This document shows, piece after piece, positions 182-18,703 of a stretch of 45,959 bases of DNA. Every line of letters starts with the position of its first letter. Position 1 is the first letter of the stretch. Made by a program: the position numbers and the translations under genes. The DNA is from a virus. The notes beneath the pieces were generated by a model, which had not been told where the DNA came from, searched no databases, and worked only from the letters and a program-made list of their open reading frames with translations. The stretch is from the IMG/VR virus record IMGVR_UViG_3300036893_000027; one strand, written 5' to 3'.

Positions 182-307
182 ATGAGACGCAAGCGCAGAG
201 TATGTTGTCAGTGTGGTGGCACTTTGCTTGTGCGGGCTTGTAGGATGTGTGGTAAGTGGTTTTGTCAGCATTGTATGAGTGGACACTTCCACCCTGTTCT
301 ATTTTAG
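182..307 (+). CDS. small Zn-ribbon protein (41 aa, several CxxC pairs)
   Basis: Strong RBS GAGGGAGGA 6 nt upstream of ATG; CCQCGG..CRMCGKWFCQHC; below 60-aa cutoff of ORF track. Confidence 0.5.
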   Translation: MRRKRRVCCQCGGTLLVRACRMCGKWFCQHCMSGHFHPVLF

Positions 308-346
308 CTCGGGTTTTAAATCTTGATTTGAAAGGAGATAACATCA

Positions 347-655
347 ATGGCACCTCAGTATATACTGAGAGTTTCAGTTTATGACAATGGTAATGTTGTT
401 TATTGTGAGGAGTGGGCAGCCACTGGTTTGGCTGATGCTCTTGACCTTGCTACATCCAAAGTGAAGAGGATGGATGATGTCACCCGTGAATTGGTTGACT
501 CGTATGTTGTGTTGAGAAACAATTATCAACTGCTTTGGTTATCAGCTTGTTCTATTGCCAAAGAGTTTGGAGCTGATGTTCCTGACAGGTATAAGGCTGC
601 TATACAGAGGGCTGAGAAGGCAATTGGAGCTTTCAGAAAGGTTTATGGATTCTGA
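347..655 (+). CDS. hypothetical protein
   Basis: ORF with RBS GAAAGGAGA upstream of ATG. Confidence 0.6.
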   Translation: MAPQYILRVSVYDNGNVVYCEEWAATGLADALDLATSKVKRMDDVTRELVDSYVVLRNNYQLLWLSACSIAKEFGADVPDRYKAAIQRAEKAIGAFRKVYGF

Positions 656-709
656 TTAGCTCGAATTTTTGGTGATGTAGATTTAACACACCTGAGATAA
701 GGAGTTAAT

Positions 710-1003
710 ATGATCATCGACGCACTGACCCACGCCGTCTCTGCTCAGAAGCATCTTCAGAGGGGCTTTGTGAAAGAGTATGGCAAACCCCAGCATATGG
801 ATGAGTACAACGTAGGTTTTTACTGGGGTATGCAAGCTTCACTTTCATTGCTTCGGAAAGTGAAGAGACATTGCGATTCCAGGCGTCTTAACCCTGAGTT
901 GCGTGCCTATATGAAGTGCAGGATGCTCCACGACCGTGCTGAGCACAGGCGTTATTTGTTGAAGAGAACCGAGTCTCTCAAACGCAATCAGAAAGGAGGA
1001 TAG
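710..1003 (+). CDS. hypothetical protein
   Basis: ORF with RBS TAAGGAG. Confidence 0.6.
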   Translation: MIIDALTHAVSAQKHLQRGFVKEYGKPQHMDEYNVGFYWGMQASLSLLRKVKRHCDSRRLNPELRAYMKCRMLHDRAEHRRYLLKRTESLKRNQKGG

Positions 1004-1004
1004 T

Positions 1005-1385
1005 ATGTGTTTAAAGTGTAAGAAATTACCTGAGGGTACCAAGTGTCCAGCTATGTTGGCACTTGAGAGGTTGACTCCTGGTGGATCTGAGTTTTGGGAG
1101 GATCCTATTAGGTGTGCTGATATGATTAGGAGCACACGCACAACTCTTATGAATATGCTGGTTCAATACAAGAAGGCTCTCAATCCAGAGTATATGTATA
1201 ATCTTGGATTGAGTGAGGATGAGGGTAAGTTCACCCTATCTGCTCTGCGAACTTTTGTAAAGAATAGAAGGGAGGGAGGTTCTGTAAGAGGCTTATATTT
1301 TACTGGCCTTGTTGAGCGTGTTGCAGATAGGCTTGACAAGATCATATATCCAAATGCACCTACGGGTGAGAAAGGAGAAGGATAA
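1005..1385 (+). CDS. hypothetical protein
   Basis: ORF with RBS AAAGGAGGA; start 2 nt after previous stop. Confidence 0.6.
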   Translation: MCLKCKKLPEGTKCPAMLALERLTPGGSEFWEDPIRCADMIRSTRTTLMNMLVQYKKALNPEYMYNLGLSEDEGKFTLSALRTFVKNRREGGSVRGLYFTGLVERVADRLDKIIYPNAPTGEKGEG

Positions 1386-1591
1386 TGCAGAATTGGTCTT
1401 TAGCTCTGCGTGAACAGCATGCTATGGATAGAATCTTGGTTGATGCTGCCATAGCATGCTTGAATGAAGTTGGGCCTGGTAAATCTGACTTGGCATTTGA
1501 AGTTGGAGCTAAACACGCTCGTATTAGGTTTCACGCCAGTGAGTGTTTCTCCTACTTGACCTGGAAAAATCCCGACTACAAAGGAGATTAG
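1385..1591 (+). CDS. hypothetical protein
   Basis: ATGA start/stop coupling with upstream gene, RBS GGAGAAGG. Confidence 0.5.
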   Translation: MQNWSLALREQHAMDRILVDAAIACLNEVGPGKSDLAFEVGAKHARIRFHASECFSYLTWKNPDYKGD

Positions 1592-1706
1592 AAACAATTA
1601 TGATAGTCGTAATTGTTTCCACTATTATTGCGTGGCTCTGTGTTATGCCGTGCATCTTTGGAGATTAAGTCGAGGGACTTGACACAATTTGGGTAAAGGA
1701 GGAATT

Positions 1707-2009
1707 ATGCCCCATAAGAGCAGGGCGGCTGTAGACTATAATCATTGGCTTGGTCTTTACATCATCTCGGATAATCGCCGGGATTTCTTGTCTGGGTTTA
1801 CTGGCCAGCATTGGGATCCTGAGGCCGACAAGCTAATGGACGAAGTTATTGATAGAGAGTTTGAGGAGGGAGACAAGAAAGGTAGAACGGTTAGACATAA
1901 ACTTTCTCACGCTATTTACCAGGGGTTTCTACTTGGTGTTTGGTGGGCATCAAGAGGATCGTTGTTTCCTGGGAGCAGTATAGCAAAAGAATTCCCACCC
2001 TCACGATGA
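1707..2009 (+). CDS. hypothetical protein
   Basis: Internal ATG at 1707 preceded by AAAGGAGG; the track start at 1689 is a TTG lying inside the RBS. Confidence 0.55.
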   Translation: MPHKSRAAVDYNHWLGLYIISDNRRDFLSGFTGQHWDPEADKLMDEVIDREFEEGDKKGRTVRHKLSHAIYQGFLLGVWWASRGSLFPGSSIAKEFPPSR

Positions 2010-2025
2010 TAGTGCTGGAGGATTT

Positions 2026-2412
2026 ATGAGCACTGATTTTGATATGAAACTATTGGCGTATGTTGATTTGTGCGCTCATATGATAACGAAGGATTATCTG
2101 GGTGAAAGATTTATACCTGGGTATAAAGGCTATCCTTCGTTATTGAGAGACAGAATCAGTGCTCTGAAAGATAGTCTCGCTGTGATGCGTATGGAGTTGG
2201 TTAGCACACAGAGAATGCTATCTATTGCTAGGGCACGTGAACAGAGTGAAAAAGTCGTAGTACTCAGGGAGCTTCCTTCAAAAACTCAGAGACAGATTGC
2301 GGGTTATGTATCTGAGAGTATTAAGCTAAAGAAGGAACTGAGGTTAGCTTATATTAAGATACATAATTTGAAGAAGGAGAACGAGTCATTAAAAAGGTTG
2401 TTGGAGCTTTAG
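2026..2412 (+). CDS. hypothetical protein with C-terminal coiled coil/leucine zipper
   Basis: RBS GGAGGA; heptad-like C-terminus KLKKELRLAYIKIHNLKKENESLKRLLEL. Confidence 0.6.
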   Translation: MSTDFDMKLLAYVDLCAHMITKDYLGERFIPGYKGYPSLLRDRISALKDSLAVMRMELVSTQRMLSIARAREQSEKVVVLRELPSKTQRQIAGYVSESIKLKKELRLAYIKIHNLKKENESLKRLLEL

Positions 2413-2456
2413 CTCAGATTAACTGGGCTGTTTCAGTCATTACATCTGAGGTTAAT

Positions 2457-2768
2457 ATGATTAATGTTTACTCTCATTTTATGTCCGCTCACGATCCGCA
2501 GATTAGGAGATGGAAGCATATGGGCACACCACATAAACTTGCGGTAGCTATTGAGTATTGTAAGTTTATGTCTCGTGGATACGGTGATGATTGGTATATG
2601 GCCAGTATCACACTAACGGTGTGTATGGGTATGTGCATCAATCACGAAATGAAGTGTATAACTCGTATTTGCAAGCATTGCAAGAGTTTTTACACTGGGA
2701 CTGCTTTTGGGCACTGCAAGTTTTGTGGAGGTTGGAACTTTGAGCGGAAAAAAGAAGAAGATACCTAG
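2457..2768 (+). CDS. Cys/His-rich hypothetical protein
   Basis: RBS GAGG; multiple Cys/His pairs (CKHCKSF..HCKFCGG). Confidence 0.55.
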   Translation: MINVYSHFMSAHDPQIRRWKHMGTPHKLAVAIEYCKFMSRGYGDDWYMASITLTVCMGMCINHEMKCITRICKHCKSFYTGTAFGHCKFCGGWNFERKKEEDT

Positions 2769-2775
2769 TTGGTAT

Positions 2776-2922
2776 ATGGTAGTAGTTTTAATCTTTGCGC
2801 TGGGTATGTGGTATTGTGCTATTTGGGCCTATCAGAATAACAATCTTCCCCTATTTCTGTTGGTACAATCCATAGGGCTGATCATTGCCTGGCTGCTATT
2901 TACATTAGCCAAGGAGGAATAG
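2776..2922 (+). CDS. small transmembrane protein (48 aa)
   Basis: ATG 8 nt after previous stop; hydrophobic helix MVVVLIFALGMWYCAIWAY..LIIAWLLF. Confidence 0.4.
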   Translation: MVVVLIFALGMWYCAIWAYQNNNLPLFLLVQSIGLIIAWLLFTLAKEE

Positions 2923-2923
2923 T

Positions 2924-3208
2924 ATGGTGCCGAAGTATGGATTTGAAATGGTGGGGCCATTTCGAATTTATCTCAGGGCCAAAGGCAAGCGAAGAGAGAA
3001 GCTTGTAGCTACCCTTAATAGCAAGGATGCACTTTCACGCTTTATCCTTGCTACTCCTGATTACGAAAAGATGTTTCGTGTTGAAGATATGGGTGCCAGG
3101 TTTATTACACTCCGTCGTGATAGACAGCTGTATAACTCCGATGTTGTTAGACAACAACATCGACTTCGCCTTCCCAAGCCAGAAACGAAGGATCCCGACT
3201 GGGAATAG
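2924..3208 (+). CDS. hypothetical protein
   Basis: RBS AAGGAGGAATAG-ATG. Confidence 0.6.
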   Translation: MVPKYGFEMVGPFRIYLRAKGKRREKLVATLNSKDALSRFILATPDYEKMFRVEDMGARFITLRRDRQLYNSDVVRQQHRLRLPKPETKDPDWE

Positions 3209-3217
3209 GAGAAACTA

Positions 3218-3430
3218 ATGAGGTATGAAATATATGTTGACGGAGAGCATTTGTATACTGCCGTCAAGGCTGATATTGCTTTAATCAGGTTTAATCAGAT
3301 GTTTTGGAGAGCTGAAAAGGAAATTAAGATTGTTAAGATTCCTTTTGAGCAAGGAGGAAAACCCCGTGTTGAAAACGATGCGGCTTTGGTGGGTGCAGTT
3401 GCGAGTAGCAAGGCTGCTAGGCAAGGCTGA
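3218..3430 (+). CDS. hypothetical protein
   Basis: RBS TAGGAGAAACTA-ATG. Confidence 0.55.
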   Translation: MRYEIYVDGEHLYTAVKADIALIRFNQMFWRAEKEIKIVKIPFEQGGKPRVENDAALVGAVASSKAARQG

Positions 3431-3734
3431 GGAATTGGCTCAGTCTGATATACCAGCTGGTGATCAGGTGTATAGAAGCTTATACACTGAGGTAAATGGT
3501 ATCTTGGATACCTTTACCGATAAGTATCCTATGCAAGATATTGAGATAGCTCCAGGTATTAATGATCTCAAGAAGCTTGCATATCCTGAACCTAAACCCA
3601 GTACCGTCAATAACATAGGGACTATTATTATTGGCGCTGCTATTACCTTGTTCACAGCTGCTGTTCTTTGGGGAACAGCAAGTGGAGTTGAACAAGCTGT
3701 TAGTCATCACGTAATGCATTTATTGGGAGGGTAG
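3330..3734 (+). CDS. hypothetical protein with C-terminal TM helix (start uncertain)
   Basis: Long ORF overlapping the previous gene out of frame; the true start may be an internal TTG or ATG. Confidence 0.35.
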   Translation: MLRFLLSKEENPVLKTMRLWWVQLRVARLLGKAEELAQSDIPAGDQVYRSLYTEVNGILDTFTDKYPMQDIEIAPGINDLKKLAYPEPKPSTVNNIGTIIIGAAITLFTAAVLWGTASGVEQAVSHHVMHLLGG

Positions 3735-3735
3735 A

Positions 3736-3951
3736 ATGAAAACAATAAAGCTGTTTTTCGTGTTTGTCTGGGTTATTGTTGTGTATATGGCAGCCTATGT
3801 AGCTGCTATTGGCGTGTTGTGGGGATTGTTTTATGCAGCCGTAGCTGGGATTAGTGGCATCGCTTATCTTCTGGAGAAATACCGTGCTAGGAAGGAGAGA
3901 CGTGCTACCAGGACTATGGAAATCCCTTTTCGGGTTGTTAACGAACGATGA
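3736..3951 (+). CDS. two-helix membrane protein
   Basis: RBS GGGAGG; two hydrophobic helices then a basic tail. Confidence 0.55.
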   Translation: MKTIKLFFVFVWVIVVYMAAYVAAIGVLWGLFYAAVAGISGIAYLLEKYRARKERRATRTMEIPFRVVNER

Positions 3952-4084
3952 ATATCGTGAGCAAGTTAAAGATATAGCTACAACTATATCTCATAACACT
4001 AACGATATTAACAACTATCAGCTCCCTGATAAAGAGAAGAAAGAAGCTCGTGTTATCAGGGATCAGAAGTGGAGGAAGAAGTGA
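3854..4084 (+). CDS. hypothetical protein (large out-of-frame overlap, start uncertain)
   Basis: ORF whose stop overlaps (GTGA) the next small gene's start, which suggests coupling. Confidence 0.3.
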   Translation: MASLIFWRNTVLGRRDVLPGLWKSLFGLLTNDEYREQVKDIATTISHNTNDINNYQLPDKEKKEARVIRDQKWRKK

Positions 4085-4218
4085 ATATCACCGTTGGCCA
4101 GCTTTTGATTTTGATTGTGCTTGGCAATATGCTTTGGGATGGATGCAAGCTTGTGCTTGGCATTCTGTTTACCATAATGGAATACATAATCAAGAGCAAT
4201 AGTCAAAGGGGGAATTGA
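4081..4218 (+). CDS. small transmembrane protein (45 aa, GTG start)
   Basis: RBS GGAGGAAGAA then GTG; hydrophobic LLILIVLGNMLW..LVLGILFTIM; its stop overlaps the next ATG (TGATG). Confidence 0.35.
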   Translation: MNITVGQLLILIVLGNMLWDGCKLVLGILFTIMEYIIKSNSQRGN

Positions 4219-4580
4219 TGGTAACTGAATTCGTTTTATATGAATTGGTTACTACGGTTGGCAGCTTGTTTGGCATCAAGCTTGTTAATGCCAAGCGCCA
4301 GCTGAGGGGAATTAACAGGCCTAAGCAATTGCCTGTTATAGACAAGGCTCTTCGTAAGAAGGTAGGCACTATGTCTGCCACTGAGGTTGTTATCTCGAAG
4401 AACCTTATTAGGTTCGTTAACACTATTATGAGATATAGGGCTGTGCAATATCTCATTGTGTTGGTAATGAGGAAAACCCGTGCAGAAGCTGACAAAAAGA
4501 TTAGGGTTATTGGTAGCTGCCATAGTAATACCAGGGGGATTTATTGCCCTGGGCGTTTATTGGTTGGCAAGCCGAGCTAA
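4218..4580 (+). CDS. hypothetical protein
   Basis: RBS AAAGGGGGAA; ATG at 4218 (the track TTG at 4215 is adjacent). Confidence 0.55.
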   Translation: MVTEFVLYELVTTVGSLFGIKLVNAKRQLRGINRPKQLPVIDKALRKKVGTMSATEVVISKNLIRFVNTIMRYRAVQYLIVLVMRKTRAEADKKIRVIGSCHSNTRGIYCPGRLLVGKPS

Positions 4581-4592
4581 GAAGGAGGTTGT

Positions 4593-4802
4593 GTGAGCGA
4601 TGATTTAAAAGCTCTAATCCTCCGAGTAATAAGGCAGGCTGGACACTTCTGTATATATCCTACTAAGTTTAATAAAGAGTATCTTGATGCTCTTGATCAG
4701 CTGGAGAAAAGTGGGATTATAGAGAAGTATTCTGTGTCCCATCCCAAGCATAAATATGCTGGTTATGTTTATGTTAAAAGGGGACACAAAGGAGACATCT
4801 AA
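4593..4802 (+). CDS. hypothetical protein (GTG start)
   Basis: RBS TAAGAAGGAGG 6 nt upstream of GTG. Confidence 0.5.
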   Translation: MSDDLKALILRVIRQAGHFCIYPTKFNKEYLDALDQLEKSGIIEKYSVSHPKHKYAGYVYVKRGHKGDI

Positions 4803-5122
4803 TGATATTCACTCCAAGTTCTACAAGTTCTTATATTGCTGGAGCTGGATTTTGGGCTACGGTATGGGCTATGTTGTTTAAGGCTGACACATTTGCCCCC
4901 AAGAAATTGAAGGTTCGTAGAAAGATATTCCGCTGGATTGGTAAGCATCCAGTTGAGGCAATAGTTGTTAGTGAGCTTACTAACTATGGCATTCACGGTG
5001 TGAGTAATCCACTGAGTGTAATGACTGCCATTGGTGGAACCGTTGTAAACACCATTATGGTTATGGGTGTTTGGATTTGGTACTTGGTTATTGGGAAGAA
5101 ATCTGAGCTGGCAAGGAGTTAA
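4802..5122 (+). CDS. membrane protein
   Basis: RBS AAAGGAGA; several hydrophobic segments. Confidence 0.55.
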   Translation: MIFTPSSTSSYIAGAGFWATVWAMLFKADTFAPKKLKVRRKIFRWIGKHPVEAIVVSELTNYGIHGVSNPLSVMTAIGGTVVNTIMVMGVWIWYLVIGKKSELARS

Positions 5123-5123
5123 T

Positions 5124-5294
5124 ATGGGTGGTAAGAGAGTGGAAGAGCACGAGAAGTGCGTCTACTTGATTCATCCAAGATTTAAGATGCCTTTTTTCAG
5201 GTGCAACCTTAGGGTTATACCTGGCACAGACTATTGTAAACGCCACACCAAAAAGGAGGCTAAGAATGTCAGTGGAGAGACACCCCAACATTAA
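5124..5294 (+). CDS. small Cys-containing protein
   Basis: Internal ATG 5124 with RBS AAGGAG; the track ORF 5067 otherwise overlaps the upstream gene. Confidence 0.5.
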   Translation: MGGKRVEEHEKCVYLIHPRFKMPFFRCNLRVIPGTDYCKRHTKKEAKNVSGETPQH

Positions 5295-5460
5295 TGCAGC
5301 TGGGTTATACCAAGATGTTATAACTGCATATCTTCAACGCTTACGTGGTGCAGCCCAAAGAGCAGAGAATAGGAGAGCTGCAATTGATGTTCTTCATCCT
5401 TTGGTCACCGATTTTATCAATAAGCTTGACGCAGCTCTCGATGAGAGGTTTCCACCGTGA
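5266..5460 (+). CDS. hypothetical protein
   Basis: RBS AAAAGGAGG. Confidence 0.5.
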   Translation: MSVERHPNINAAGLYQDVITAYLQRLRGAAQRAENRRAAIDVLHPLVTDFINKLDAALDERFPP

Positions 5461-5650
5461 ACCCTGAGAGTATTAGCAGTATGTTATTTGGCCAGCTCAG
5501 GTATATGTCGATTTTACTCATACCAAGCTTGATTAGGTATGGGGCTGATGTGTGTGCCCACTATGTATATTATTGTTATACATATGGGTTTATACACTTC
5601 AATATGGCGTTGTTGCATTTGCTGTAAAATTGAGGAGAAAGGAGAGAACA

Positions 5651-5878
5651 ATGAACCTACGTCTGTGGTTAAGCAAGCATCCACGCTTGACTCGCATTTG
5701 GAGCGATGAATCAGGGCAGGATATTATCGAGTATGCCTTGATCCTTGCTCTGATTGCGATGTTGGCAGTGACAGGGTTTCCTCCACTGGCAACAGCAATT
5801 CAGAAGGTGTTCACTGGAGCTCAGACTTGTCTGAATGCTCCAACAACCTGTGGTGCTACCACTGGTGGCACCAACTAA
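5651..5878 (+). CDS. Flp/Fap-family type IVb pilin homolog
   Basis: ATG 5651 with RBS GGAGAAAGGAGAG; leader plus DESGQDIIEYALILALIAMLAV, matching the Flp signature (xDExGxxxIEYxLIxAxIA). Confidence 0.55.
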   Translation: MNLRLWLSKHPRLTRIWSDESGQDIIEYALILALIAMLAVTGFPPLATAIQKVFTGAQTCLNAPTTCGATTGGTN

Positions 5879-5888
5879 CAATTAAACC

Positions 5889-5908
5889 ATTGGTATAATG
5901 TGCCAATA
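5889..5908 (+). promoter_or_regulatory. promoter-like motif ATTGGTATAATGTGCCAATA (extended -10 TGGTATAAT)
   Basis: Perfect TGnTATAAT; the motif is repeated at 5991-6010. Confidence 0.45.
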
Positions 5909-5990
5909 GCAGGACTGTATTCGTTTCATTTGTGGCAGGAGCTATTCTATCTAAGCGGCTCTGGAGGCTACAATAGAATACAGTCCTGAT

Positions 5991-6010
5991 ATTGGCATAA
6001 TGTGCCAATA
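5991..6010 (+). promoter_or_regulatory. second copy of promoter-like motif (TGGCATAAT)
   Basis: Near-identical 20-mer, 102 bp downstream of the first copy. Confidence 0.4.
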
Positions 6011-6110
6011 AACAGACTGTGTACAGGGTTATTACAAGCAGGTTGGTGTAAGGCATCACGGTACTGGAGAACACCAACTGAAAGCTTGTGATAGTACACA
6101 GTCTGTATTA

Positions 6111-6183
<73 letters not shown>

Positions 6184-6254
6184 CCAATTTCTGTAAGTTC
6201 TGTGTTGCTGTGGCACAGATGTAGTGTAGTGAATAACAGTGAAAGGAGGGCCAA

Positions 6255-6470
6255 GTGCGCTACATAAAAGTGCTGAAGACTCTTGCTATTGTTGTAGGCG
6301 GAAGTCTTTCAGCTCTGGGTGTTTACTTTCTCTATCGCTCTATGTTTGGCGGGACTCCAGCTATTGAAGCTGATAGTCGTGCTGTTCAGGGAGCGTGGCG
6401 TAGTGCTGTTTCCGGCATTGCGAATCTGTTCCGTCGTAGTAGAACAGATGAGACAGTAATAGCTGCGTAG
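6255..6470 (+). CDS. hypothetical membrane-associated protein (GTG start)
   Basis: RBS GAAAGGAGGG then GTG; hydrophobic N-terminus. Confidence 0.5.
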   Translation: MRYIKVLKTLAIVVGGSLSALGVYFLYRSMFGGTPAIEADSRAVQGAWRSAVSGIANLFRRSRTDETVIAA

Positions 6471-6520
6471 TTGGGTGAGGCTAGTAATAGCCTCACTTTA
6501 AATCACAATCAGGAGGTGTT

Positions 6521-6760
6521 ATGTCAAATAAGGGAACCAAGTGGAGTGCTGAACGACGTGCCAAATTCAAAGCCAGCTGGGCTGCGAGGATGGCAGAAAA
6601 GAGGGCTCAAAAGAATCGTCTGGGTAAGTCGAGGAATGAATCCAATACCGTTGTAGCATTGGCTCTTCCTTCCATTGATACATTCGATTCAGATGATGTG
6701 AAAGCCCTGTTGAGGATGCAGCGTAAGCATCCTCATCTGTTTGACGGTTGGCTGGATTAA
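6521..6760 (+). CDS. basic hypothetical protein
   Basis: RBS AATCAGGAGGTG. Confidence 0.6.
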   Translation: MSNKGTKWSAERRAKFKASWAARMAEKRAQKNRLGKSRNESNTVVALALPSIDTFDSDDVKALLRMQRKHPHLFDGWLD

Positions 6761-6779
6761 TTCCAGCTAAACACAGGCT

Positions 6780-6819
6780 GGGTGAATTGTAGTTCTTGGG
6801 CAATTCACCCTTCCTTTGA
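6780..6819 (+). terminator. putative intrinsic terminator
   Basis: 10-bp perfect stem GGGTGAATTG/CAATTCACCC followed by TTCCTTTG. Confidence 0.45.
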
Positions 6820-6836
6820 TAAGCCTTGCCATTTTT
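6814..6836 (+). promoter_or_regulatory. conserved motif CTTTGATAAGCCnnGnCATTTTT (copy 1)
   Basis: Same 23-nt motif recurs at 11903-11925 upstream of another gene. Confidence 0.3.
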
Positions 6837-6948
6837 CGCCATAGTTGTGTGGGCTATAGGCGTGTTGTGGAAATAACCACACCGACTGACGGGTGGAGGG
6901 TGTGCTTATCTCAATAGTGGGGGCTCACCCTCCATTAAAATAGGAGAT

Positions 6949-7131
6949 ATGATGAATGAAAAGCAGTTCTATGACTTCTTAGCTGAAACAAGATCTATGA
7001 CCACGGATGAACTGCTCCATTGTGTGCTTGATATAACAGCGACAGAGTGTGAGCATTGGTTTGTCAAGGTAAATATGATCTTTTCTGAGCTGGAAAGGAG
7101 GGGATGGAATGATGAGGTCGATGGCTTTTAG
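6949..7131 (+). CDS. hypothetical protein
   Basis: RBS ATAGGAGAT. Confidence 0.55.
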   Translation: MMNEKQFYDFLAETRSMTTDELLHCVLDITATECEHWFVKVNMIFSELERRGWNDEVDGF

Positions 7132-7528
7132 ATGGAGGATTTATTGGGTTGGCTTGATAGCCGCTTTGTTTGGGCTTTTGTGGTTTAAGAATAAGAAATA
7201 CTATCCTGATAAAGGTTGGCGCTGGACAGGTGGTAAGTCCATTCTTGAATGCCTCGGTCTTGTTGTTTCGGCCATATATATGCCAGCTTTGATTGTGGCT
7301 TATGCCAGTATATGGTTGACCAGAAACATCAAACATCAATACATTAAGCTGGCTGCAAGTGTAATAGTCAGCATACCTCTTATGCTTATGGGCAACCTTC
7401 TTCTTGAGGGCCTTGTTATTATAGGTGCCTTTGCCATTGAACTGCTGTCCTCCGATGTGATACGATATTATCGTGAAAGGAGGAATAAACGATATGGAGT
7501 ATCAACAGAAGTCGCTCAATCTGCGTGA
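7109..7528 (+). CDS. multi-pass membrane protein
   Basis: RBS GGAAAGGAGGGG; three or four hydrophobic helices. Confidence 0.6.
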   Translation: MMRSMAFRWRIYWVGLIAALFGLLWFKNKKYYPDKGWRWTGGKSILECLGLVVSAIYMPALIVAYASIWLTRNIKHQYIKLAASVIVSIPLMLMGNLLLEGLVIIGAFAIELLSSDVIRYYRERRNKRYGVSTEVAQSA

Positions 7529-7721
7529 GCTGATAGATGAGCTCTGGGCTTTGTATTTTGTTTTTATCAAGGGTTTGTGGCTATCTGCTACATCCTTGTT
7601 GTATATGTTTGCTTTACTTATGTATACAACAGCCCAATGGTTCTTTGTTGGTAGTAAGAGATTGTATGTTAAAGCACAGGACTGGAAGCCTGTCAGACCT
7701 GTTATCTTTAACATCGAATAG
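7494..7721 (+). CDS. membrane protein
   Basis: Internal ATG 7494 with RBS GAAAGGAGGAATAAAC; hydrophobic core. Confidence 0.5.
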   Translation: MEYQQKSLNLRELIDELWALYFVFIKGLWLSATSLLYMFALLMYTTAQWFFVGSKRLYVKAQDWKPVRPVIFNIE

Positions 7722-7729
7722 GAGGTCTT

Positions 7730-8215
7730 ATGGCTGCGAGGAAGTTCTTGTGCTGGAATTGCAAACATAACGGCAAGCTTAAGCTTGTTGCTGGTAGATA
7801 TGTTTGTAGTAAGTGCAAGAAGGAGCCTAAGAAGGTCTATTGCCAAAACTGCGGCCGTAAGATATGGGCCTCTGATGGGACTTGGATACACAATACTTAT
7901 GTAAGGTGTACCCCTCAGCCTTACATACATTACGATGAGTATAACGGAGGCTCCTATACATATGGAGGTGTTAGTTGTGGCTATCATAATCCACGCCTGT
8001 TAACTTCCAATCCTCCTACTTATAACTGGTGCGTTTGTGATTACGAGGGTAAACCAGTTTTGAATTGCACCTGTGAGACTTACAAGAAAGAGAGGGATAG
8101 GCTCATTGACAAGCGGAACGCTGCAATTCATCGGGACGAAGAAATCAAGCGTAAGAAAAGAGATAAGGTATTAGCCAAGTTTGAAAAGCTTGGTATAAGG
8201 TTGGAGATTATATAG
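7730..8215 (+). CDS. Zn-ribbon / multi-CxxC protein
   Basis: RBS TAGGAGGTC; CWNC..CSKC..CQNC and further Cys clusters. Confidence 0.6.
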   Translation: MAARKFLCWNCKHNGKLKLVAGRYVCSKCKKEPKKVYCQNCGRKIWASDGTWIHNTYVRCTPQPYIHYDEYNGGSYTYGGVSCGYHNPRLLTSNPPTYNWCVCDYEGKPVLNCTCETYKKERDRLIDKRNAAIHRDEEIKRKKRDKVLAKFEKLGIRLEII

Positions 8216-8223
8216 GAGGTATT

Positions 8224-8472
8224 ATGCCAGTGCTTCGTGGTAGAGACAAAAGTGTAAGACCTGCTTTGAACGCAGTGATTGAGATAGCACATAGTCTTTC
8301 TCAATTGCGGGCTATTATTTATCTTTATCCGAATGTCAAGGGTCTCAAAGCCGAAGTGGAGCACGCTGAAGACCATCTTGAAAATGCCATCTATCACTTG
8401 AACCTTGAACTTGGGAGGTCAAATGTTAAAGGAAAAGTTGGATGTAATGCTACCATTCCAGTCAAGATATAG
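8224..8472 (+). CDS. hypothetical protein
   Basis: RBS TAGGAGGTATT-ATG. Confidence 0.55.
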   Translation: MPVLRGRDKSVRPALNAVIEIAHSLSQLRAIIYLYPNVKGLKAEVEHAEDHLENAIYHLNLELGRSNVKGKVGCNATIPVKI

Positions 8473-8836
8473 TCTTGAAAAACCCCTTCTTGTCAGGATT
8501 TATCCACATCTACTCGAGAGTGCCTGCCGTAGAAAGTCCTATAGGAGCTATGATATAGGACTTTCCCATAATGATTTAGATACTACTGCTCATATGCTGT
8601 CTGTATTGTCTCACGAGCTTGGACATATAATGCTTGATATTACGGGGTTACCATTTGCTTTTGGACTTTTGAACCAGCCAGATTCTTATTCTGCCCGTAA
8701 GTATGTCTATAGGACGGAGTCTAAGGCTTGGGATAAAGCTAGGTTAATATTTGAAGAGACCAGGAAGCTTTGTCTGCGTAGCTATGAAAGGGATTTAGGA
8801 TTGGAGGATCCTTTTGCTAAAAGACAAACTGATTGA
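8423..8836 (+). CDS. putative HExxH zinc metallopeptidase (ImmA/IrrE-like)
   Basis: ATG 8423 with RBS GGGAGG; motif LSHELGHIMLD. Confidence 0.5.
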   Translation: MLKEKLDVMLPFQSRYSLEKPLLVRIYPHLLESACRRKSYRSYDIGLSHNDLDTTAHMLSVLSHELGHIMLDITGLPFAFGLLNQPDSYSARKYVYRTESKAWDKARLIFEETRKLCLRSYERDLGLEDPFAKRQTD

Positions 8837-10349
8837 TGCTGGTTTGGCTTTTATGGATATGGTTATTGATCAGGTTCCAACCTTGCTGTCTGAAATAATT
8901 GGAACTAAAATCAAGAACAAAGCTGTTGATGCTATTGGTATTAAGTATAAGGGAATACCGAGGCTATTATCAGCTCGAGTTCTTGCGAAGAGAGCAGAAG
9001 ATGGTGCTTTCCTATCTGGCCCACAACAGATAGGATATGCCAAGTTTGCTATTCGCAAGGGTTTACCGGGCCCTGGTCAGAAGTATATGGCGATTGAGAA
9101 TGAACCACACACCGTTGATGATTTCAGTGGTGTGATTAAGGAGGGATATGGCAAAGGACGAAAGACCCTTGTTTGGTCCGGGCCAGCAGCAATCAAGAGT
9201 GCTGACCGCAGATGGATTGGGAGAGTTAATATCCATCTCCATAGCGCAGAACGTGCGGGAGACCACTATGATTTCGTTGCGGAAGGCGTTAGCCCAGGGG
9301 CCACGCAATTTGAAGTTAATATTCCGTCTGGTAAGTTTAGAGGACGGTACGCATTTGTGTCTCCTGACGGATTTTCAGGTGGAGAACGACTCATCACGAG
9401 GATGAAAGATCGTGGTGTATCTCTTGAGAAACCACGGTTTATCCTCAAGGATATTGACGAGCTTGTAGCATTAGATATTCTTGAGTCTCCTGATGCTGTA
9501 GTTGAGTGGAAGCCTGATGGTAGCTTGGGTAATGTTCTTATCCACGAGAACAGAGCTATTATTACCAGCCACAGGAAACAGGTTCCTTCCTATTACGATA
9601 AACTACCAGCTCTTGAATGGTTGGATAATAAGAGTCGATTGTTTACCAATAGACTCTTATTCAAAGGGCCAGATCAACAAGGGACTTTGTTGAGGGCTGA
9701 GCTATTTCATCCTGATGGAGCAGCAAGAGTTGGAGGTATCTTAAACTCTTCCCCTGATAAGGCTCAGTTATTCCAGCGTAAGAATGGGCCTGTTGTTACT
9801 TATGTTTGGGACATTGTCAAGCTCAGGGGAAGGGATGTTAGCAAACGGCCATACATAGAAAGGAGAGCAATATACGAGGATGTAGTAAAAGATATACGCA
9901 GGTATAATAAGAATTGGTTTGTTATACCTTCCGCTGACAAGAACTTTGTTTCATTCTATGAGCGGATTATCCACGATAAACGTGGTCTTCCTTGGAGTGA
10001 AGGTGTACTGATTAAAGAACACACCCACAAGACAGGTGATTCTGTCTATAAGGTTAAGTTCCGTGATACTTACGATGTCATCGTCTTGGATGTATTACAA
10101 GGCGAAGGCAAGCGTAAGGGTATGGTTGGTCAGTTTGTAGTTGATACTGGCCAGGGTGTAGGTGAAGTGGGCAGTTTTATGGCTACAGATAAGCAATTGA
10201 GATGGATGTGGAGAAATCGCAGCCTGCTCAAAGGACAGGTAGCTGAAGTATATGCCCAGGATGTCACGGAAGCTGGAGCACCAAGGGCTGGTGTGTTCTT
10301 CAGGTGGCATCCATCCAAGTCCGATGTTGCTAATTTGATGCCAAGGTAA
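8814..10349 (+). CDS. ATP-dependent DNA ligase with N-terminal LigD-type 3'-phosphoesterase-like domain
   Basis: Motif I EWKPDGS, motif III LRAELFHPDG, IV YVWDI, EGVLIKE, OB domain with motif VI-like PRAGVFFRWHPSKSD; N-terminus HLHSAERAGDHYDFVAEG resembles the LigD PE motif HxHx..HYDFRLE; probable TTG start with RBS GGAGGA. Confidence 0.8.
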   Translation: MLKDKLIDAGLAFMDMVIDQVPTLLSEIIGTKIKNKAVDAIGIKYKGIPRLLSARVLAKRAEDGAFLSGPQQIGYAKFAIRKGLPGPGQKYMAIENEPHTVDDFSGVIKEGYGKGRKTLVWSGPAAIKSADRRWIGRVNIHLHSAERAGDHYDFVAEGVSPGATQFEVNIPSGKFRGRYAFVSPDGFSGGERLITRMKDRGVSLEKPRFILKDIDELVALDILESPDAVVEWKPDGSLGNVLIHENRAIITSHRKQVPSYYDKLPALEWLDNKSRLFTNRLLFKGPDQQGTLLRAELFHPDGAARVGGILNSSPDKAQLFQRKNGPVVTYVWDIVKLRGRDVSKRPYIERRAIYEDVVKDIRRYNKNWFVIPSADKNFVSFYERIIHDKRGLPWSEGVLIKEHTHKTGDSVYKVKFRDTYDVIVLDVLQGEGKRKGMVGQFVVDTGQGVGEVGSFMATDKQLRWMWRNRSLLKGQVAEVYAQDVTEAGAPRAGVFFRWHPSKSDVANLMPR

Positions 10350-10393
10350 GGAAAGAATCCCCACCATTAAGGTGGGAGTACTGGGGGTGTAAA

Positions 10394-11005
10394 ATGAAGT
10401 ATGTAATAGCAGTAGTATTAGCATTAGTCTTTGCTTCGTATGCTCAGGCTCAGTTGCTACCACAATCTACCGTGGTATTTGTGGGGCCTGAGACTACGGT
10501 TCAGGGATATCAGCATAATACGAGGGGAACTGATGGCTATATGGCTGCTGGATTAGATTTTGAGGATCAACAGCCGATGTATGCTGCTATCGATACCACA
10601 TTCGCCAGTTATTGGTTATGGGAATATGGTACGACAGATCCAAGATCAGTTATAGTTCGGGATTTTATTCAGCCCGATCATCTGCCTGTATTACCTGGGC
10701 AGGGAATAGCTGCTACTTGGTTCAGTTTTCCCAGTCTTACAATCGGCCTCGATTTAACAGATGGGAATACACATAGTGTATCTCTTTACGCTGTTGATTA
10801 CGATGGCCAAGGCAGAGATGAGACCGTGTTAGTTTATGACACGGTTACTGGTATCTTATTGGATATGGAACGGATCCCTTATCCATTTAAGAACGGTTTG
10901 TATTTGGTCTGGAAGATCAAAGGTAATGTCACTTTTGACGTTATCTGCAATCAAGGGCCAAACGCTGTAGTCTCTGCTTTCTTCTTTGATCCCCCAGCAC
11001 AATAA
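10394..11005 (+). CDS. secreted protein (signal peptide)
   Basis: N-terminus MKYVIAVVLALVFASYAQA, a typical Sec signal with an AxA cleavage site. Confidence 0.6.
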   Translation: MKYVIAVVLALVFASYAQAQLLPQSTVVFVGPETTVQGYQHNTRGTDGYMAAGLDFEDQQPMYAAIDTTFASYWLWEYGTTDPRSVIVRDFIQPDHLPVLPGQGIAATWFSFPSLTIGLDLTDGNTHSVSLYAVDYDGQGRDETVLVYDTVTGILLDMERIPYPFKNGLYLVWKIKGNVTFDVICNQGPNAVVSAFFFDPPAQ

Positions 11006-11015
11006 GGAGGAATAA

Positions 11016-11330
11016 GTGCAACCACGGGAACATTACCAGCCCGTGATGGTTACCACTACTCTGTATAAACGGATGGTCAGAGTCGGTGCTATATGTAGCA
11101 GTTGCAGGCAGCGTGTTGCTGAGCACGGTGGTTTTAAGCCGTGTGTTGGTGCCGCTGCAGTCATCTCTACCGATCTTGTCAGAGCAGCGTGTGGTTTCCA
11201 TCGGGCTTTGAATGGAGATTCACTCAAGAAGGCTTTTTACTTCCACCTGGCTGAGACTGTATCCGAAGTAGGCTCGCAGTATTGGTGGGAGAAATTAGCC
11301 TTCAAACTTCGTGAGCTAATGAAATCTTAG
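11016..11330 (+). CDS. hypothetical protein (GTG start)
   Basis: RBS AAGGAGGAATAA then GTG. Confidence 0.5.
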   Translation: MQPREHYQPVMVTTTLYKRMVRVGAICSSCRQRVAEHGGFKPCVGAAAVISTDLVRAACGFHRALNGDSLKKAFYFHLAETVSEVGSQYWWEKLAFKLRELMKS

Positions 11331-11939
11331 CTCAAACAAGTTCCCGTAAGGGAAGGTAACAGATTATGAGCTGTTACCAGTCAACGCTGTAGGCATCAGC
11401 GGGAGGTATGACCCTGATGTAGATTATAACGCACGGCCGAATCTAATAGGTAGTATGCATCTACCATTAGATCCCGTCTAACCCTGACCAGAAGCCTACT
11501 ACTGGAGCGAAGGTACCACACCTGGGGAACTCCAAGTAGGAATAGGTGTACCACTGGGTAGAATCTAACTCAGTGGTAAAGCCTAACAGGTAGCCTGGAG
11601 GTAATGCGAACGTGGATAGTTCATAGGAGGGGTCGTTGTCCAGCGGTGGGCAACGACTGGTAGTGGAAGTCTATCTACGGTCGTTTGCTACACAGCGGTA
11701 GAGTATATTCTTGTATAGAATATACTTTTAGTCTGGTGCTACTCAAGGGTAGAGTATACCAGGTGAGTGGGATGTACTCAGTGCTTTAGGAGTACATCCA
11801 GAGTGGATTATACCAAGTAGTTGGGTACTGCTCATTGGTTTAGATATACCCAGTTATTTGGTTATACTCAGTAGGTGAAAACTACTGGGATAAGCCCCGA
11901 TTCTTTGATAAGCCCCGGCATTTTTGAAAGGAGGAGATT
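11331..11939. repeat. 600-bp ORF-free region dense in direct repeats and hairpins
   Basis: No ORF of 60 aa or more; reiterated (G)GTAGAGTATAYC, TGGATTATACC, GATATACCC and (A/T)ACTCAGTRG units; several 7-10 bp inverted repeats (e.g. GGATGTACTC/GAGTACATCC, CTAATAGGTAG..CTACCATTAG, GTCGTTG..CAACGAC). Confidence 0.5.
11903..11925 (+). promoter_or_regulatory. conserved motif CTTTGATAAGCCCCGGCATTTTT (copy 2), with adjacent GATAAGCCCCG direct repeat
   Basis: Matches 6814-6836; lies 15 nt upstream of the next gene start. Confidence 0.3.
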
Positions 11940-12152
11940 TTGGAAGAGCGTGAGCCATACACCCACGAACATCACAGCTTCACAAAGAAACTACCACACA
12001 TTCCTTGGCCATTCTGTGCCTACTGCGGGCTATTAAGATTAAGGAATTGGCTCACCGACCAAGCTGTTAAACTTGGATGTAATCACACTGATCATCCCAG
12101 TTGGAAATCTTTGGTCAAGAAAGGGGAACCAATTGGACATCATCACAATTAA
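11940..12152 (+). CDS. hypothetical protein (TTG start)
   Basis: RBS GAAAGGAGGAGATTT-TTG. Confidence 0.4.
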   Translation: MEEREPYTHEHHSFTKKLPHIPWPFCAYCGLLRLRNWLTDQAVKLGCNHTDHPSWKSLVKKGEPIGHHHN

Positions 12153-12266
12153 ATTTCCTCCGTTTTGGTGGACTTGGTTGAGACACCAATTACAAACTTG
12201 TGATTTGAATTGTGGCATATGCTACCACGAATTCTGCCAAGAAATGAAAAAAAAAGGAGAAACAAA

Positions 12267-12542
12267 ATGAAAGAGCAGAGAAATGATTTCATTTGCTTGA
12301 CCAGGGTTGAACAGGATTACACAGTATCATCAACAGAAGGAACTTTTGTCACCATCGAAACGCCTATCTACATAAGGAAGAACTCAATTTTAAACATATG
12401 GAGAACCTCTCGCACAGTTCGATACGATGGGGCAGAAAAGGAAACTGAAATAAAATTCACCAGGATCAATAGTTCGTGGCCACATTCACAACAATACGAT
12501 GTAAAAGAGACTCCAGAGGAGATCTTCAACAAGGAGAAATAA
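12267..12542 (+). CDS. hypothetical protein
   Basis: ATG 12267 with RBS AAAAAGGAGAAACAAA. Confidence 0.5.
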   Translation: MKEQRNDFICLTRVEQDYTVSSTEGTFVTIETPIYIRKNSILNIWRTSRTVRYDGAEKETEIKFTRINSSWPHSQQYDVKETPEEIFNKEK

Positions 12543-13228
12543 TGGCGCTGAAAGATATCAAACTTGATGGTAGATACTCCGCCAATATGTGGAAGGTATT
12601 AAGGCGTTTCCTTGAATCCAACATCAACCAGAAATGGAGTGTAGTATACTCTCAAATCTGTGCTGTAGCCAAGGCAGATACTTTACTTGGCAGGAAACTT
12701 CGTGAGGCCACACTTCGTGAAGTAGATGTAGAAAACGTCAATGATAGACCTTATCCAGCTGATTATTTCGTGGATGGTAAAGGCCTATTACAAAAGGGAT
12801 TACAGCGGGAATCCTGGAAGCGCAGGAAGAAAAAGAAGATGCAGACTGCTCCCATAGAGAAAATCCTATTTGTTGATGATGGATTAGATCTATGGTATGA
12901 GCTTTGCGAGACTTCCGATGGCCCGGCTGCTTCCAAATACAGCAAGAAGAGTTGGCACTGGTTTAGGGTAGAACGCAAATACCGAACCGAAGCCGTGAGC
13001 CAACACGAATATATCAATGGCAAATATATTCAGACTGGCTGGAAGGAAGTAGTAAAAGAGGACATTCACAAGTGGACTTGTAATCACAAGATGGTTGCCA
13101 AGATCAATAAGATCTGCAATAGGCAATCAAAGATACTCAAATTAACCAGCTATTACAGGGAAGGAGACAATCGTTGGACAGGCACCTGGCATATAGTAGC
13201 CACCGTCCCAGGAAAGAGTAGAAAATGA
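12542..13228 (+). CDS. hypothetical protein
   Basis: ATG 12542 overlapping previous stop (TAATG), RBS AAGGAG. Confidence 0.6.
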   Translation: MALKDIKLDGRYSANMWKVLRRFLESNINQKWSVVYSQICAVAKADTLLGRKLREATLREVDVENVNDRPYPADYFVDGKGLLQKGLQRESWKRRKKKKMQTAPIEKILFVDDGLDLWYELCETSDGPAASKYSKKSWHWFRVERKYRTEAVSQHEYINGKYIQTGWKEVVKEDIHKWTCNHKMVAKINKICNRQSKILKLTSYYREGDNRWTGTWHIVATVPGKSRK

Positions 13229-13602
13229 CACTCTCAAAGAAACAATTAGAAGACAATCCCAAGATCAAATACCGTAAATGGTTTTGGATTTGGGAGCGAG
13301 ATCTTCTGGCTTTAGCTGGGGATATATTTGATTGGCATCCAACTGATTACGAAGTTAATCAGTGGTCAAGTATGATGGATGCCTATCACAATCGTCCACC
13401 TACAGATTGGCGCACTATCTTGGACAAAGATAAGTGCGTTACCTTATGGAGACAAAAAGCACACGAGCTTGGATTCAAAGATGAAAGAATCTATGCTCTA
13501 TGGCCGCATGCCGATGCAGGCAGACATATCAAATATATGGAAAACCCCTGGTGGAAGGAGCCAGCAAATGGAAATACGGATAGTGCTACAGGTAAAACCT
13601 GA
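13225..13602 (+). CDS. hypothetical protein
   Basis: ATGA coupling; RBS AAAGAG. Confidence 0.55.
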   Translation: MTLSKKQLEDNPKIKYRKWFWIWERDLLALAGDIFDWHPTDYEVNQWSSMMDAYHNRPPTDWRTILDKDKCVTLWRQKAHELGFKDERIYALWPHADAGRHIKYMENPWWKEPANGNTDSATGKT

Positions 13603-18538: not shown

Positions 18539-18614
18539 GTCCTCGTATCGGAACGGACTTCTAATCCGTAGCCCCGTAAATGGATCAATGTGAGTTCGAG
18601 TCTCACCGAGGACA
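18539..18614 (+). ncRNA. atypical tRNA-Arg(UCU)-like element without a canonical D-arm
   Basis: Perfect 7-bp acceptor GTCCTCG/CGAGGAC plus ACCA, anticodon arm ACGGA-CTTCTAA-TCCGT (TCT), T-arm GTGAG-TTCGAGT-CTCAC; only 7 nt lie between acceptor and anticodon stem, with a 20-nt region where the variable loop should be; a 5' Ala-tRNA-like fragment (GAGGCTGTAGCTCAGC) sits immediately upstream. Confidence 0.4.
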
Positions 18615-18703
18615 CCATTTCCTAGGAAGAGAGGTATTTGAACCCAAAGTATATGTCTCGGCAAAAGAAGCAATCGAAAGGATTGATAAACTACTGAAAT
18701 AAA

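What the first reader, a model, noticed from the sequence alone, without database searches (positions are those of the whole stretch)
11331..11939. Repeat- and palindrome-rich 600-bp ORF-free region
This is the only long non-coding stretch in the window. It contains reiterated units (GGTAGAGTATATTC, GGGTAGAGTATACC, GTGGATTATACC, GATATACCC, GGTTATACTCAGTAGG; AACTCAGTGG/TACTCAGTGC/TACTCAGTAG). It also has many stable hairpins: TTCCC-GTAA-GGGAA, GGTAACAG..CTGTTACC, CTAATAGGTAG-TATGCAT-CTACCATTAG, GTCGTTG..CAACGAC, AGTATATTC..GAATATACT and GGATGTACTC..GAGTACATCC. It ends in a duplicated GATAAGCCCCG and the shared CTTTGATAAGCC motif. Candidates are a replication origin or iteron array, a cluster of small structured RNAs, or a packaging or regulatory hub.
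Basis: seen in the sequence. Interest (0 to 1): 0.55.

Follow-up and report, generated by a model that had tools for sequence, protein, structure and literature searches.

The report
Phage non-coding spacer with promoter-like boxes
This 609-base gene-free stretch of an uncultured large phage really is packed with repeats and hairpins, and is most likely a control region between two gene blocks; only its last ~60 bases (a hairpin and two repeated boxes just before the next gene) are conserved in related phages.

Summary
Window 11331-11939 has no ORF over 52 aa. Its direct repeats and perfect hairpins exceed every shuffle, and its hairpin density is 3-4 times that of the rest of the window. Two cautions apply. 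The whole upstream 12 kb also folds unusually well, so the fold z-score (-5.8 to -7.4) is high but not unique. The body of the region has no alignable counterpart in relatives.

What is conserved is the 3' end. In four lineages (ligase 56-60% identical) a hairpin is followed by two direct 14-nt boxes (TACTKGKATAAGMC, 18-19 nt apart), 7-27 nt before a start codon (in one lineage the called gene starts 107 nt on). The 'TATACC..CAGT' repeats in this phage are inverted copies of that box. On the minus strand two of them read TGGTATAAT and TGGTATACT, the extended -10 promoter type this phage uses elsewhere.

Best reading (about 0.4): a transcribed, structured regulatory junction with divergent promoter-like elements. 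Rivals are a discrete structured ncRNA, neutral cassette debris and a replication origin. No Rfam family, tRNA, DnaA box, CsrB-like or MotA-type signal was found. Function is inferred, not shown.

The parts
11331..11939 (.). ORF-free spacer between a 104-aa ORFan (11016-11330) and a 70-aa phrog_7020 ORF (11940-12152)
11341..11378 (+). Two adjacent hairpins, TTCCC-GTAA-GGGAA and GGTAACAG-N8-CTGTTACC. Read on the minus strand, the first is followed by CTTGTTTGAG, a weak terminator-like site.
11385..11696 (+). Predicted multi-hairpin domain closed by a long-range helix (GCTGTA / TACAGC). It contains hairpins at 11395-11420, 11443-11470, 11496-11541, 11549-11578 and 11632-11657. MFE and centroid structures nearly coincide.
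11686..11758 (+). Two 22-nt direct repeats, TGCTACNCANNGGTAGAGTATA (11686-11707 and 11737-11758), flanking an AT-rich 12-bp hairpin (11700-11728)
11753..11761 (-). Anti-box unit b. The minus strand reads TGGTATACT (extended -10 type). It is retained in variant L002.
11770..11799 (+). Perfect 10-bp hairpin GGATGTACTC-N10-GAGTACATCC. The L002 change at 11798 turns G-C into G.U.
11807..11815 (-). Anti-box unit c. The minus strand reads TGGTATAAT, a perfect extended -10. In L002 this T is lost here, and a TATAAT is gained in unit e (at 11861).
11816..11832 (+). Hairpin AGTAG[TTGGGTA]CTGCT. Four of the nine clustered W/L002 substitutions fall in its 5-bp stem, and all keep pairing. One pair changes on both sides (G-C to A-U, 11820/11828).
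   Evidence: with my reading of the alignment
11843..11874 (+). Anti-box units d (GATATACCCAGT) and e (GGTTATACTCAGTAG). Unit e is the 5' arm of the hairpin that pairs with box 1.
11867..11889 (+). Conserved hairpin CTCAGTAG-GTGAAAA-CTACTGGG, whose 3' arm overlaps box 1. The counterpart in L005 is GTAG-GTTAAAT-CTAC.
11883..11896 (+). Box 1, TACTGGGATAAGCC (clade-conserved twin box, first copy)
11901..11914 (+). Box 2, TTCTTTGATAAGCC, 18 nt after box 1. It is followed by SD GGAGGAG (11930-11936) and a TTG start at 11940.
6780..6836 (+). The only other copy in the window: a 10-bp hairpin followed by a single box, CTTCCTTTGATAAGCCTTGCCATTTTT

Best explanation
The region is a transcribed, non-coding junction between two gene blocks in the variable region downstream of the DNA ligase gene of an uncultured large phage.

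Its functional core is the last ~60 nt. A hairpin has a 3' arm that overlaps the first of two direct 14-nt boxes (TACTKGKATAAGMC, 18-19 nt apart). The second box lies 7-27 nt upstream of a candidate start codon (in L021 the called gene starts 107 nt on). I infer that the boxes are tandem promoter-type elements or operator sites that start or gate expression of the downstream A-rich block. Their hexamer (T/G)ATAAG is -10-like but carries G at the position of the -7 T.

In this lineage the box has been copied four times in inverted orientation, giving the 'TATACC..CAGT' repeats. These inverted copies can base-pair with the boxes in read-through RNA. On the minus strand two of them are canonical extended -10 promoters that point leftward into the hairpin-rich body. 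The ~170 nt from 11750 to 11915 would then be a divergent promoter cluster.

The hairpin-rich body (11331-11750) would be untranslated, structured RNA: the 3' tail of the upstream block and/or a leftward transcript.

Shown: the anatomy, the conservation of the twin box, and the promoter matches. Inferred: that any of these elements fire, and what the structured RNA does.
For: - The twin box with an 18-19 nt period occurs once per locus in four lineages whose ligases are 56-60% identical, while the surrounding DNA cannot be aligned: window 11883/11901, L005 17237/17256, L021 8588/8607, L022 6453/6472.
- In all four it directly precedes an SD sequence and a candidate start codon. In three of the four it sits 1-2 genes upstream of the homologue of the 250-aa gene 12476-13228; for L022 that homologue is assumed from position and was not tested.
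- Box-like hits score at least 13 bits 17 times on the plus strand and 3 times on the minus strand in 189 kb; nine of the plus-strand hits are the training sites. Several of the untrained hits fall in intergenic gaps: window 6810, L019 5082, L025 1511 and 2209.
- The minus strand carries TGGTATAAT (11815) and TGGTATACT (11761). This is the same motif found on the plus strand at six sites, three of which I checked and found just upstream of a gene or tRNA (5891, 23536, 27507).
- Between the window and L002, the perfect TATAAT moves from unit c to unit e by two opposite transitions, at 11807 and 11861.
- The compositional boundary lies at 11.9-12.2 kb, exactly at the twin box: G+T drops from 0.55 to 0.46 and AT skew flips sign.
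- No strong plus-strand terminator lies inside the region, so read-through RNA should contain it.
- In L005 and L021 an upstream segment is complementary to box 1 over 9-11 bp, with a compensatory difference: C-G in L005 against A-T in L021 (my pairing).
Against: - The boxes carry G where sigma-70 needs the -7 T, and no -35 element lies at 16-18 nt. They are not standard host promoters, and no phage sigma factor or RNA polymerase was identified in the window.
- In L005 the second box is only 13 nt from the ATG, which is tight for a promoter.
- The minus-strand promoters are specific to this lineage; none is found in L005, L021 or L022.
- The minus-strand terminator is weak, and such sites are at chance frequency.
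- The conserved box 1 complementarity makes sense only in an RNA that starts upstream of the boxes. That argues the boxes could be RNA-level elements rather than promoters.
- There are no expression data.
Confidence: 0.4

Rival explanations
1. A discrete, lineage-specific structured non-coding RNA (or a few) on the plus strand, roughly 11331-11890. It would be processed from read-through transcripts and act as an RNA, in the way large ornate phage-associated RNAs such as GOLLD and ROOL do. The twin box would be part of it or would sit just after it.
For: - The plus-strand fold is -226 kcal/mol with z of -7.4. For 11331-11746 it is -154.8 with z of -4.8, and MFE and centroid nearly coincide.
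- All 11 base substitutions between the window and L002 in the region are transitions. Seven lie in plausible stems and all seven keep pairing, through G.U on the plus strand or a double change.
- ORF-poor, hairpin-rich segments also precede the twin box in L005 (z of -3.9) and L021.
- Short significant local similarities exist between L005 and L021 and between L021 and L022.
Against: - No Rfam family matches even at E up to 10.
- The fold z-score is not unique in this genome, and the strand asymmetry follows G+T content.
- The body cannot be aligned with relatives, so there is no real covariation test.
- In L022 the equivalent space holds a terminator and a called 46-aa ORF.
- I chose the 11816-11832 hairpin after seeing the substitutions.
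Confidence: 0.25
2. The body is mostly neutral debris. Only the hairpin plus twin box is functional. The rest would be leftover or duplicated regulatory cassettes, as with degraded PeSLs (promoter-early stem-loop cassettes) in T4-type phages, accumulated by recombination in a hyperplastic region.
For: - Gene content between the ligase and the 12476 homologue differs in every relative.
- The window and L002 are 99.5% identical but have replaced patches at 12100-12500 and 13200-13550.
- The repeats are box copies with irregular spacing, which matches the description of degraded PeSLs as 'multiple weak/degraded copies ... inappropriately spaced' (PMC4122927).
- The body is not conserved.
Against: - Hairpin density is 3-4 times background, and perfect 10-bp stems are retained.
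- The substitutions keep pairing, and a minus-strand TATAAT is maintained.
- There is no trace of decayed coding sequence.
Confidence: 0.2
3. A replication origin. The box copies would be iterons bound by an initiator, the AT-rich palindrome at 11700-11728 would be the unwinding element, and the promoters would provide transcriptional activation.
For: - Six or seven copies of a 10-14-nt motif lie within 230 nt, next to a 77% A+T palindrome.
- Tandem promoters flank known phage origins (T7 phi1.1A/B; from my own knowledge).
- The site coincides with a skew discontinuity.
Against: - There are no DnaA boxes.
- Spacing is irregular (51/54/36/18/26/18 nt) and orientation is mixed.
- The plus strand is G+T-rich to the left and A-rich to the right, the reverse of a bidirectional origin.
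- Relatives keep only the two boxes next to the start codon.
- The flanking genes are ORFans with no recognisable initiator.
Confidence: 0.08
4. A T5-type injection-stop or untranslated repeat region that marks the end of a first-injected pre-early block.
For: - It is an ORF-free, repeat- and palindrome-rich region at a sharp boundary between a block of small ORFs and the rest of the genome, which resembles the T5 injection stop signal (iss) region (10.1101/866236).
- The two blocks differ in composition.
Against: - The T5 repeat regions are highly conserved among relatives and carry eight DnaA boxes. Here the body is not conserved and there are no DnaA boxes.
- There is no evidence for terminal repeats or two-step injection.
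- Homologues of the upstream genes in relatives are not near contig ends.
Confidence: 0.03

Closest known systems
PeSL / PmSL cassettes (promoter-early stem-loop) of T4-type phages (Arbiol 2010, PMC2839356; Comeau 2014, PMC4122927)
   Same: - A stem-loop lies just upstream of a promoter-type element, followed by SD and start codon.
- It sits in a hyperplastic region full of small ORFans.
- Copies recur (6780-6836 and 11867-11914).
- Degraded, mis-spaced copies lie nearby.
- Mosaic replacement between near-identical genomes occurs close by.
   Different: - The boxes are not -35/N17/-10 sigma-70 promoters, because the hexamer ends in G.
- There are only two loci in 46 kb, not one per gene.
- The boxes are paired as a fixed 18-19 nt direct repeat.
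- Inverted copies are complementary to the box.
- The phage is not shown to be T4-type.
T5 untranslated repeat regions / injection stop signal
   Same: [quoted passage not shown]
   Different: - There is no DnaA-box array.
- The repeats are not conserved in relatives.
- No terminal-repeat context is known.
Large ornate phage-associated ncRNAs (GOLLD, ROOL)
   Same: - The size class is 400-600 nt.
- Many hairpins are enclosed by long-range helices.
- It lies in a phage genome that also carries tRNAs and RNA-repair genes.
   Different: - There is no match to either covariance model.
- There is no conserved core across relatives.
- There is no covariation support.
Iteron-type origins (lambda ori, plasmid oriV)
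   Same: Reiterated short motif next to an AT-rich segment.
   Different: - Spacing is irregular and orientation is mixed.
- There are no DnaA boxes.
- The conserved copies abut a start codon.

Membership tests
PeSL-type promoter/stem-loop cassette | Stem-loop immediately upstream of the promoter element | tested here: met
   The hairpin at 11867-11889 overlaps box 1, and the hairpin at 6780-6810 abuts the box at 6810. L005 and L022 also have a hairpin just upstream.
PeSL-type promoter/stem-loop cassette | Sigma-70-like -35 / N17 / -10 promoter | tested here: not met
   The box hexamer is (T/G)ATAAG, with G at the -7 position, in all 8 conserved copies. No -35 lies at 16-18 nt.
PeSL-type promoter/stem-loop cassette | Followed by SD and start codon of the next gene | tested here: met
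   The gap from box 2 to the start codon is 27 nt (window), 21 nt (L022), 13 nt (L005), and 7 or 107 nt (L021).
PeSL-type promoter/stem-loop cassette | Many dispersed copies that flank ORFs differing between close relatives | tested here: inconclusive
   Only two loci occur in 46 kb. A mosaic patch between the window and L002 starts about 180 nt downstream.
Iteron replication origin | Three or more same-orientation repeats at regular, helical-phase spacing | tested here: not met
   Spacing is 51/54/36/18/26/18 nt, with four copies inverted relative to two.
Iteron replication origin | DnaA boxes | tested here: not met
   TTWTNCACA has no match in the region; there are 3 in the window against 5.1 expected.
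Iteron replication origin | Adjacent AT-rich unwinding element | tested here: inconclusive
   Only a ~30-nt palindrome of 77% A+T, at 11700-11728.
Iteron replication origin | Initiation of replication at the site | not testable with these tools
   This needs marker-frequency or replication-intermediate mapping.
T5 iss-type repeat region | Repeats conserved in order among relatives | tested here: not met
   Only the 3' module is shared.
Known structured RNA families (Rfam 15, including tRNA, GOLLD, ROOL, group I/II introns) | Covariance-model match | tested here: not met
   Nothing reaches the gathering score. At E up to 10 there are only two snoRNA chance hits. Nothing was found in relatives.
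tRNA gene or pseudogene cluster | Cloverleaf detected above the chance rate | tested here: not met
   ARAGORN finds none at default or 80% thresholds. At 70% it finds 3 hits, against 2.6 per 900 nt in shuffles.
Extended -10 sigma-70 promoter (minus-strand units b and c) | TGnTATAAT-type sequence | tested here: met
   TGGTATAAT at 11815-11807 and TGGTATACT at 11761-11753. Activity was not tested.

The most novel reading that the evidence does not exclude
The anti-box and box complementarity is a riboregulatory device. In read-through RNA, several upstream 'CCAGTAG/TATACC' segments would compete to pair with the conserved box, next to the ribosome-binding site. This would happen inside a ~550-nt ornate RNA specific to an uncultured large-phage clade. 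The RNA fold would then gate expression of the next gene block, or the RNA would be a new large structured phage ncRNA class.
Probability: 0.15. Interest if true: 0.6.

Novelty: new variant of a known kind. Interest (0 to 1): 0.35.

Why it matters
If the twin box is a promoter or operator class of this uncultured large-phage clade, it gives a handle on that clade's gene regulation. It has a -10-like hexamer ending in G, a fixed 18-19 nt tandem arrangement, and a hairpin that can mask the first copy. The relatives are represented by contigs of 210-220 kb and also appear to encode an RdRP/YonO-like polymerase, which could be the enzyme that reads these boxes. The case also shows how short regulatory boxes can be copied in both orientations and build a long repeat- and palindrome-rich spacer. 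It is a caution against reading such spacers as origins. In itself it is a moderately ordinary intergenic control region.

Tried and rejected
- **tRNA or tRNA-like genes.** 'GGTAGAG' resembles a D-arm, but ARAGORN hits at a relaxed threshold are at the chance rate and no Rfam tRNA hit was found.
- **Known RNA families.** None matched.
- **T4 MotA-type middle promoter.** TTTGCTACA-N11-TATATT at 11684 looks like one, but the pattern is not enriched and shows no strand bias in the window, with 9 plus-strand and 7 minus-strand matches.
- **CsrB-like GGA sponge.** There are 15 GGA triplets, against a window mean of 13.3.
- **Decayed gene.** tblastx against relatives finds nothing, and every frame has at least 8 stops.
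- **Plus-strand sigma-70 or extended -10 promoters inside the region.** None was found.
- **DnaA boxes.** None was found.
- **Strand asymmetry of folding as evidence for a plus-strand RNA.** It is explained by the G+T skew of the whole upstream block.
- **Finding relatives.** The phages database, IMG/VR by protein and by DNA pattern, and JGI metagenomes by pattern (a chance hit in coding DNA) gave nothing. The two flanking proteins are ORFans.
- **Alignment of the body with relatives.** It failed or was ambiguous. My tentative homology of hairpin 11549-11578 with the L021 and L022 hairpins is therefore not claimed.
- **Twin box in more distant relatives.** It was not found in L007, L017, L019 or L024-L029 within the flanks fetched.

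Full report
**Context**

The window is part of an uncultured large phage. Over 46 kb the genes I identified all lie on the plus strand, and there are scattered tRNAs. Recognisable genes include:
- an ATP-dependent DNA ligase at 8814-10349;
- polynucleotide kinase;
- two RNA ligases;
- NAMPT and a NUDIX protein;
- peptide deformylase.

No cultured phage is related at the DNA level. Exact-protein look-ups found the same phage in three other assemblies and one variant, L002. L002 is about 99.5% identical, with mosaic replaced patches. The ligase has homologues at 48-60% identity, some on contigs of 210-220 kb. I fetched about 15 related loci through them.

**Observation**

The region lies between the stop codon of a 104-aa ORFan (11330) and the TTG start of a 70-aa ORF (11940). 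Gene callers missed that ORF, but it matches phrog_7020 and has homologues in many phages. Nothing over 52 aa is open, and each frame carries 8-17 stops. tblastx against relatives finds nothing, so this is not a freshly decayed gene.

All the listed repeats and hairpins are present and exceed dinucleotide shuffles. Hairpin density is 3-4 times that of the rest of the window.

Calibration matters, however. This genome's 600-nt windows average z of -2.8, and six other sampled windows, mostly coding, reach -5.9 or lower. The whole block 1-11.9 kb is G+T-rich and folds far better on the plus strand. Thermodynamic stability and strand asymmetry are therefore weak evidence on their own.

**What is conserved**

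blastn and nhmmer of the region against relatives gave one hit. It is 24 nt at the 3' end, matching L005.

Reading it showed a shared module: a hairpin (GTAG-GTNAAAN-CTAC) followed by two direct copies of TACTGG(G/T)ATAAG(C/A)C. The same twin box has an 18-19 nt period and occurs once per locus in L005/L006, L021 and L022. A small HMM finds only these sites. In every case the second box lies 7-27 nt upstream of a candidate start codon; in L021 the called gene starts 107 nt on. In three of the four lineages the module sits 1-2 genes before the homologue of window gene 12476-13228; for L022 that homologue is assumed from position.

A PWM built from the boxes shows plus-strand bias, with 17 plus-strand against 3 minus-strand hits (nine of the plus-strand hits are the training sites). 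Several untrained hits fall in intergenic gaps of relatives. The window has one further, single copy behind a hairpin at 6780-6836. The motif is absent from IMG/VR and JGI contigs by pattern search.

**What the internal repeats are**

The reverse complements of the 'TATACC..CAGT' units (11751-11874) align with the box. For example, the reverse complement of unit c is CTACTTGGTATAATCC, against CTACTGGTATAAGAC for the L005 box. The units are therefore inverted box copies.

Two things follow:
- They are complementary to the boxes. Unit e and box 1 form the long hairpin that RNAalifold predicts. In L005 and L021 an upstream segment (TGTACCAGTAG / TGTACAAGTAG, significant local similarity) is complementary to box 1 over 9-11 bp. 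One position differs in a compensatory way, C-G against A-T.
- On the minus strand, units c and b read TGGTATAAT and TGGTATACT. This is the extended -10 motif found at six plus-strand sites in the window; the three I checked lie just upstream of a gene or tRNA.

Between the window and L002, the perfect TATAAT moves from unit c to unit e through opposite transitions at 11807 and 11861. That hints that one functional leftward -10 is being maintained.

**Substitution pattern**

The window and L002 differ at 12 positions in the region (11 substitutions and one 1-nt deletion). Nine substitutions cluster in 11798-11868, and all are transitions.

Seven fall in plausible stems, and all seven keep pairing (and my reading). 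Four lie in the 5-bp stem at 11816-11832, which includes a G-C to A-U double change.

This suggests selection on plus-strand pairing. It is post hoc, however, and rests on a single comparison.

**Boundary**

AT skew flips sign and G+T drops from about 0.55 to 0.46 at 11.9-12.2 kb, which is exactly at the twin box. Relatives show no such shift.

**Interpretation**

The conserved promoter-proximal twin box, the divergent extended -10 elements and the block boundary point to a regulatory junction.

PeSL cassettes of T4-type phages are the closest described architecture, but the boxes fail the sigma-70 criterion because the hexamer ends in G. Relatives encode a ~970-aa protein with a weak RdRP (PF05183) hit upstream of the ligase. 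This raises the untested possibility of a phage polymerase with its own promoters.

Against an origin:
- There are no DnaA boxes.
- Repeat spacing and orientation are irregular.
- The direction of the skew change is wrong for a bidirectional origin.
- Only the boxes next to the start codon are conserved.

The T5 iss region is a formal analogue, but its defining conservation and DnaA-box array are missing here.

A discrete structured ncRNA remains possible. The 11331-11746 fold is well defined, with z of -4.8. It has no family match and no alignable homologues.

**Verdict**

This is a real, non-random, non-coding region. It is most likely a regulatory junction whose conserved part is the hairpin plus twin-box module. 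The function of the hairpin-rich body is unresolved.

Noticed in passing
window 18539-18617: A second tRNA-like gene lies next to tRNA-Lys. Rfam tRNA scores it 42.6 bits, but ARAGORN finds it only at relaxed thresholds, with an oversized anticodon loop and a four-base 'anticodon' (cccg). It could be an unusual or frameshift-type tRNA, or a degenerate one.
   Followed up: partly
window 5879-6110: Two copies of TGG(T/C)ATAATGTGCCAATA (extended -10 type) each precede a segment of ~80-95 nt enclosed by a 12-13-bp inverted repeat, directly upstream of tRNA-Met. This is the most stable 600-nt window (-247 kcal/mol, z of -8.7). It may hold small RNAs or processing sites.
   Followed up: no
window 1-11900 versus 12000-45959: There is a sharp compositional change. 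The upstream block has GC skew of about +0.2, T at or above A, G+T of 0.53-0.59, and much more stable plus-strand folding. The downstream block is A-rich (AT skew about +0.15). No such change is seen in relatives L005 and L021.
   Followed up: partly
window 8500-8800, 12100-12500, 13200-13550 (versus L002): These are mosaic replaced patches (25-100% divergent) in genomes that are otherwise 99.5% identical, typical of a hyperplastic region.
   Followed up: partly
L027 1787-4678 (also L005 1692-4607, L007 622-3591, L019 1008-3941, L024 940-3909, L026 3137-6061): Relatives encode a 963-989-aa protein 5-6 kb upstream of the ligase. The L027 copy has a weak Pfam RdRP (PF05183) hit, so it may be a YonO/crAss-like single-subunit RNA polymerase. 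The equivalent gene would lie just left of this window.
   Followed up: no
window 11940-12152: A 70-aa ORF with a TTG start has conserved Cys and His residues and matches phrog_7020, with homologues in many enterobacterial phages. It was not called in the public assemblies.
   Followed up: partly
window 40269-42692: An 807-aa protein has major-vault-protein shoulder, Vault_3 and SPFH/Band-7 domains, which seemed to me an unusual combination for a phage protein.
   Followed up: no
window 4131-4730, 41731-43130: Three sampled 600-nt windows here, mostly coding, have fold z-scores of -7 to -8, as extreme as the finding itself.
   Followed up: no
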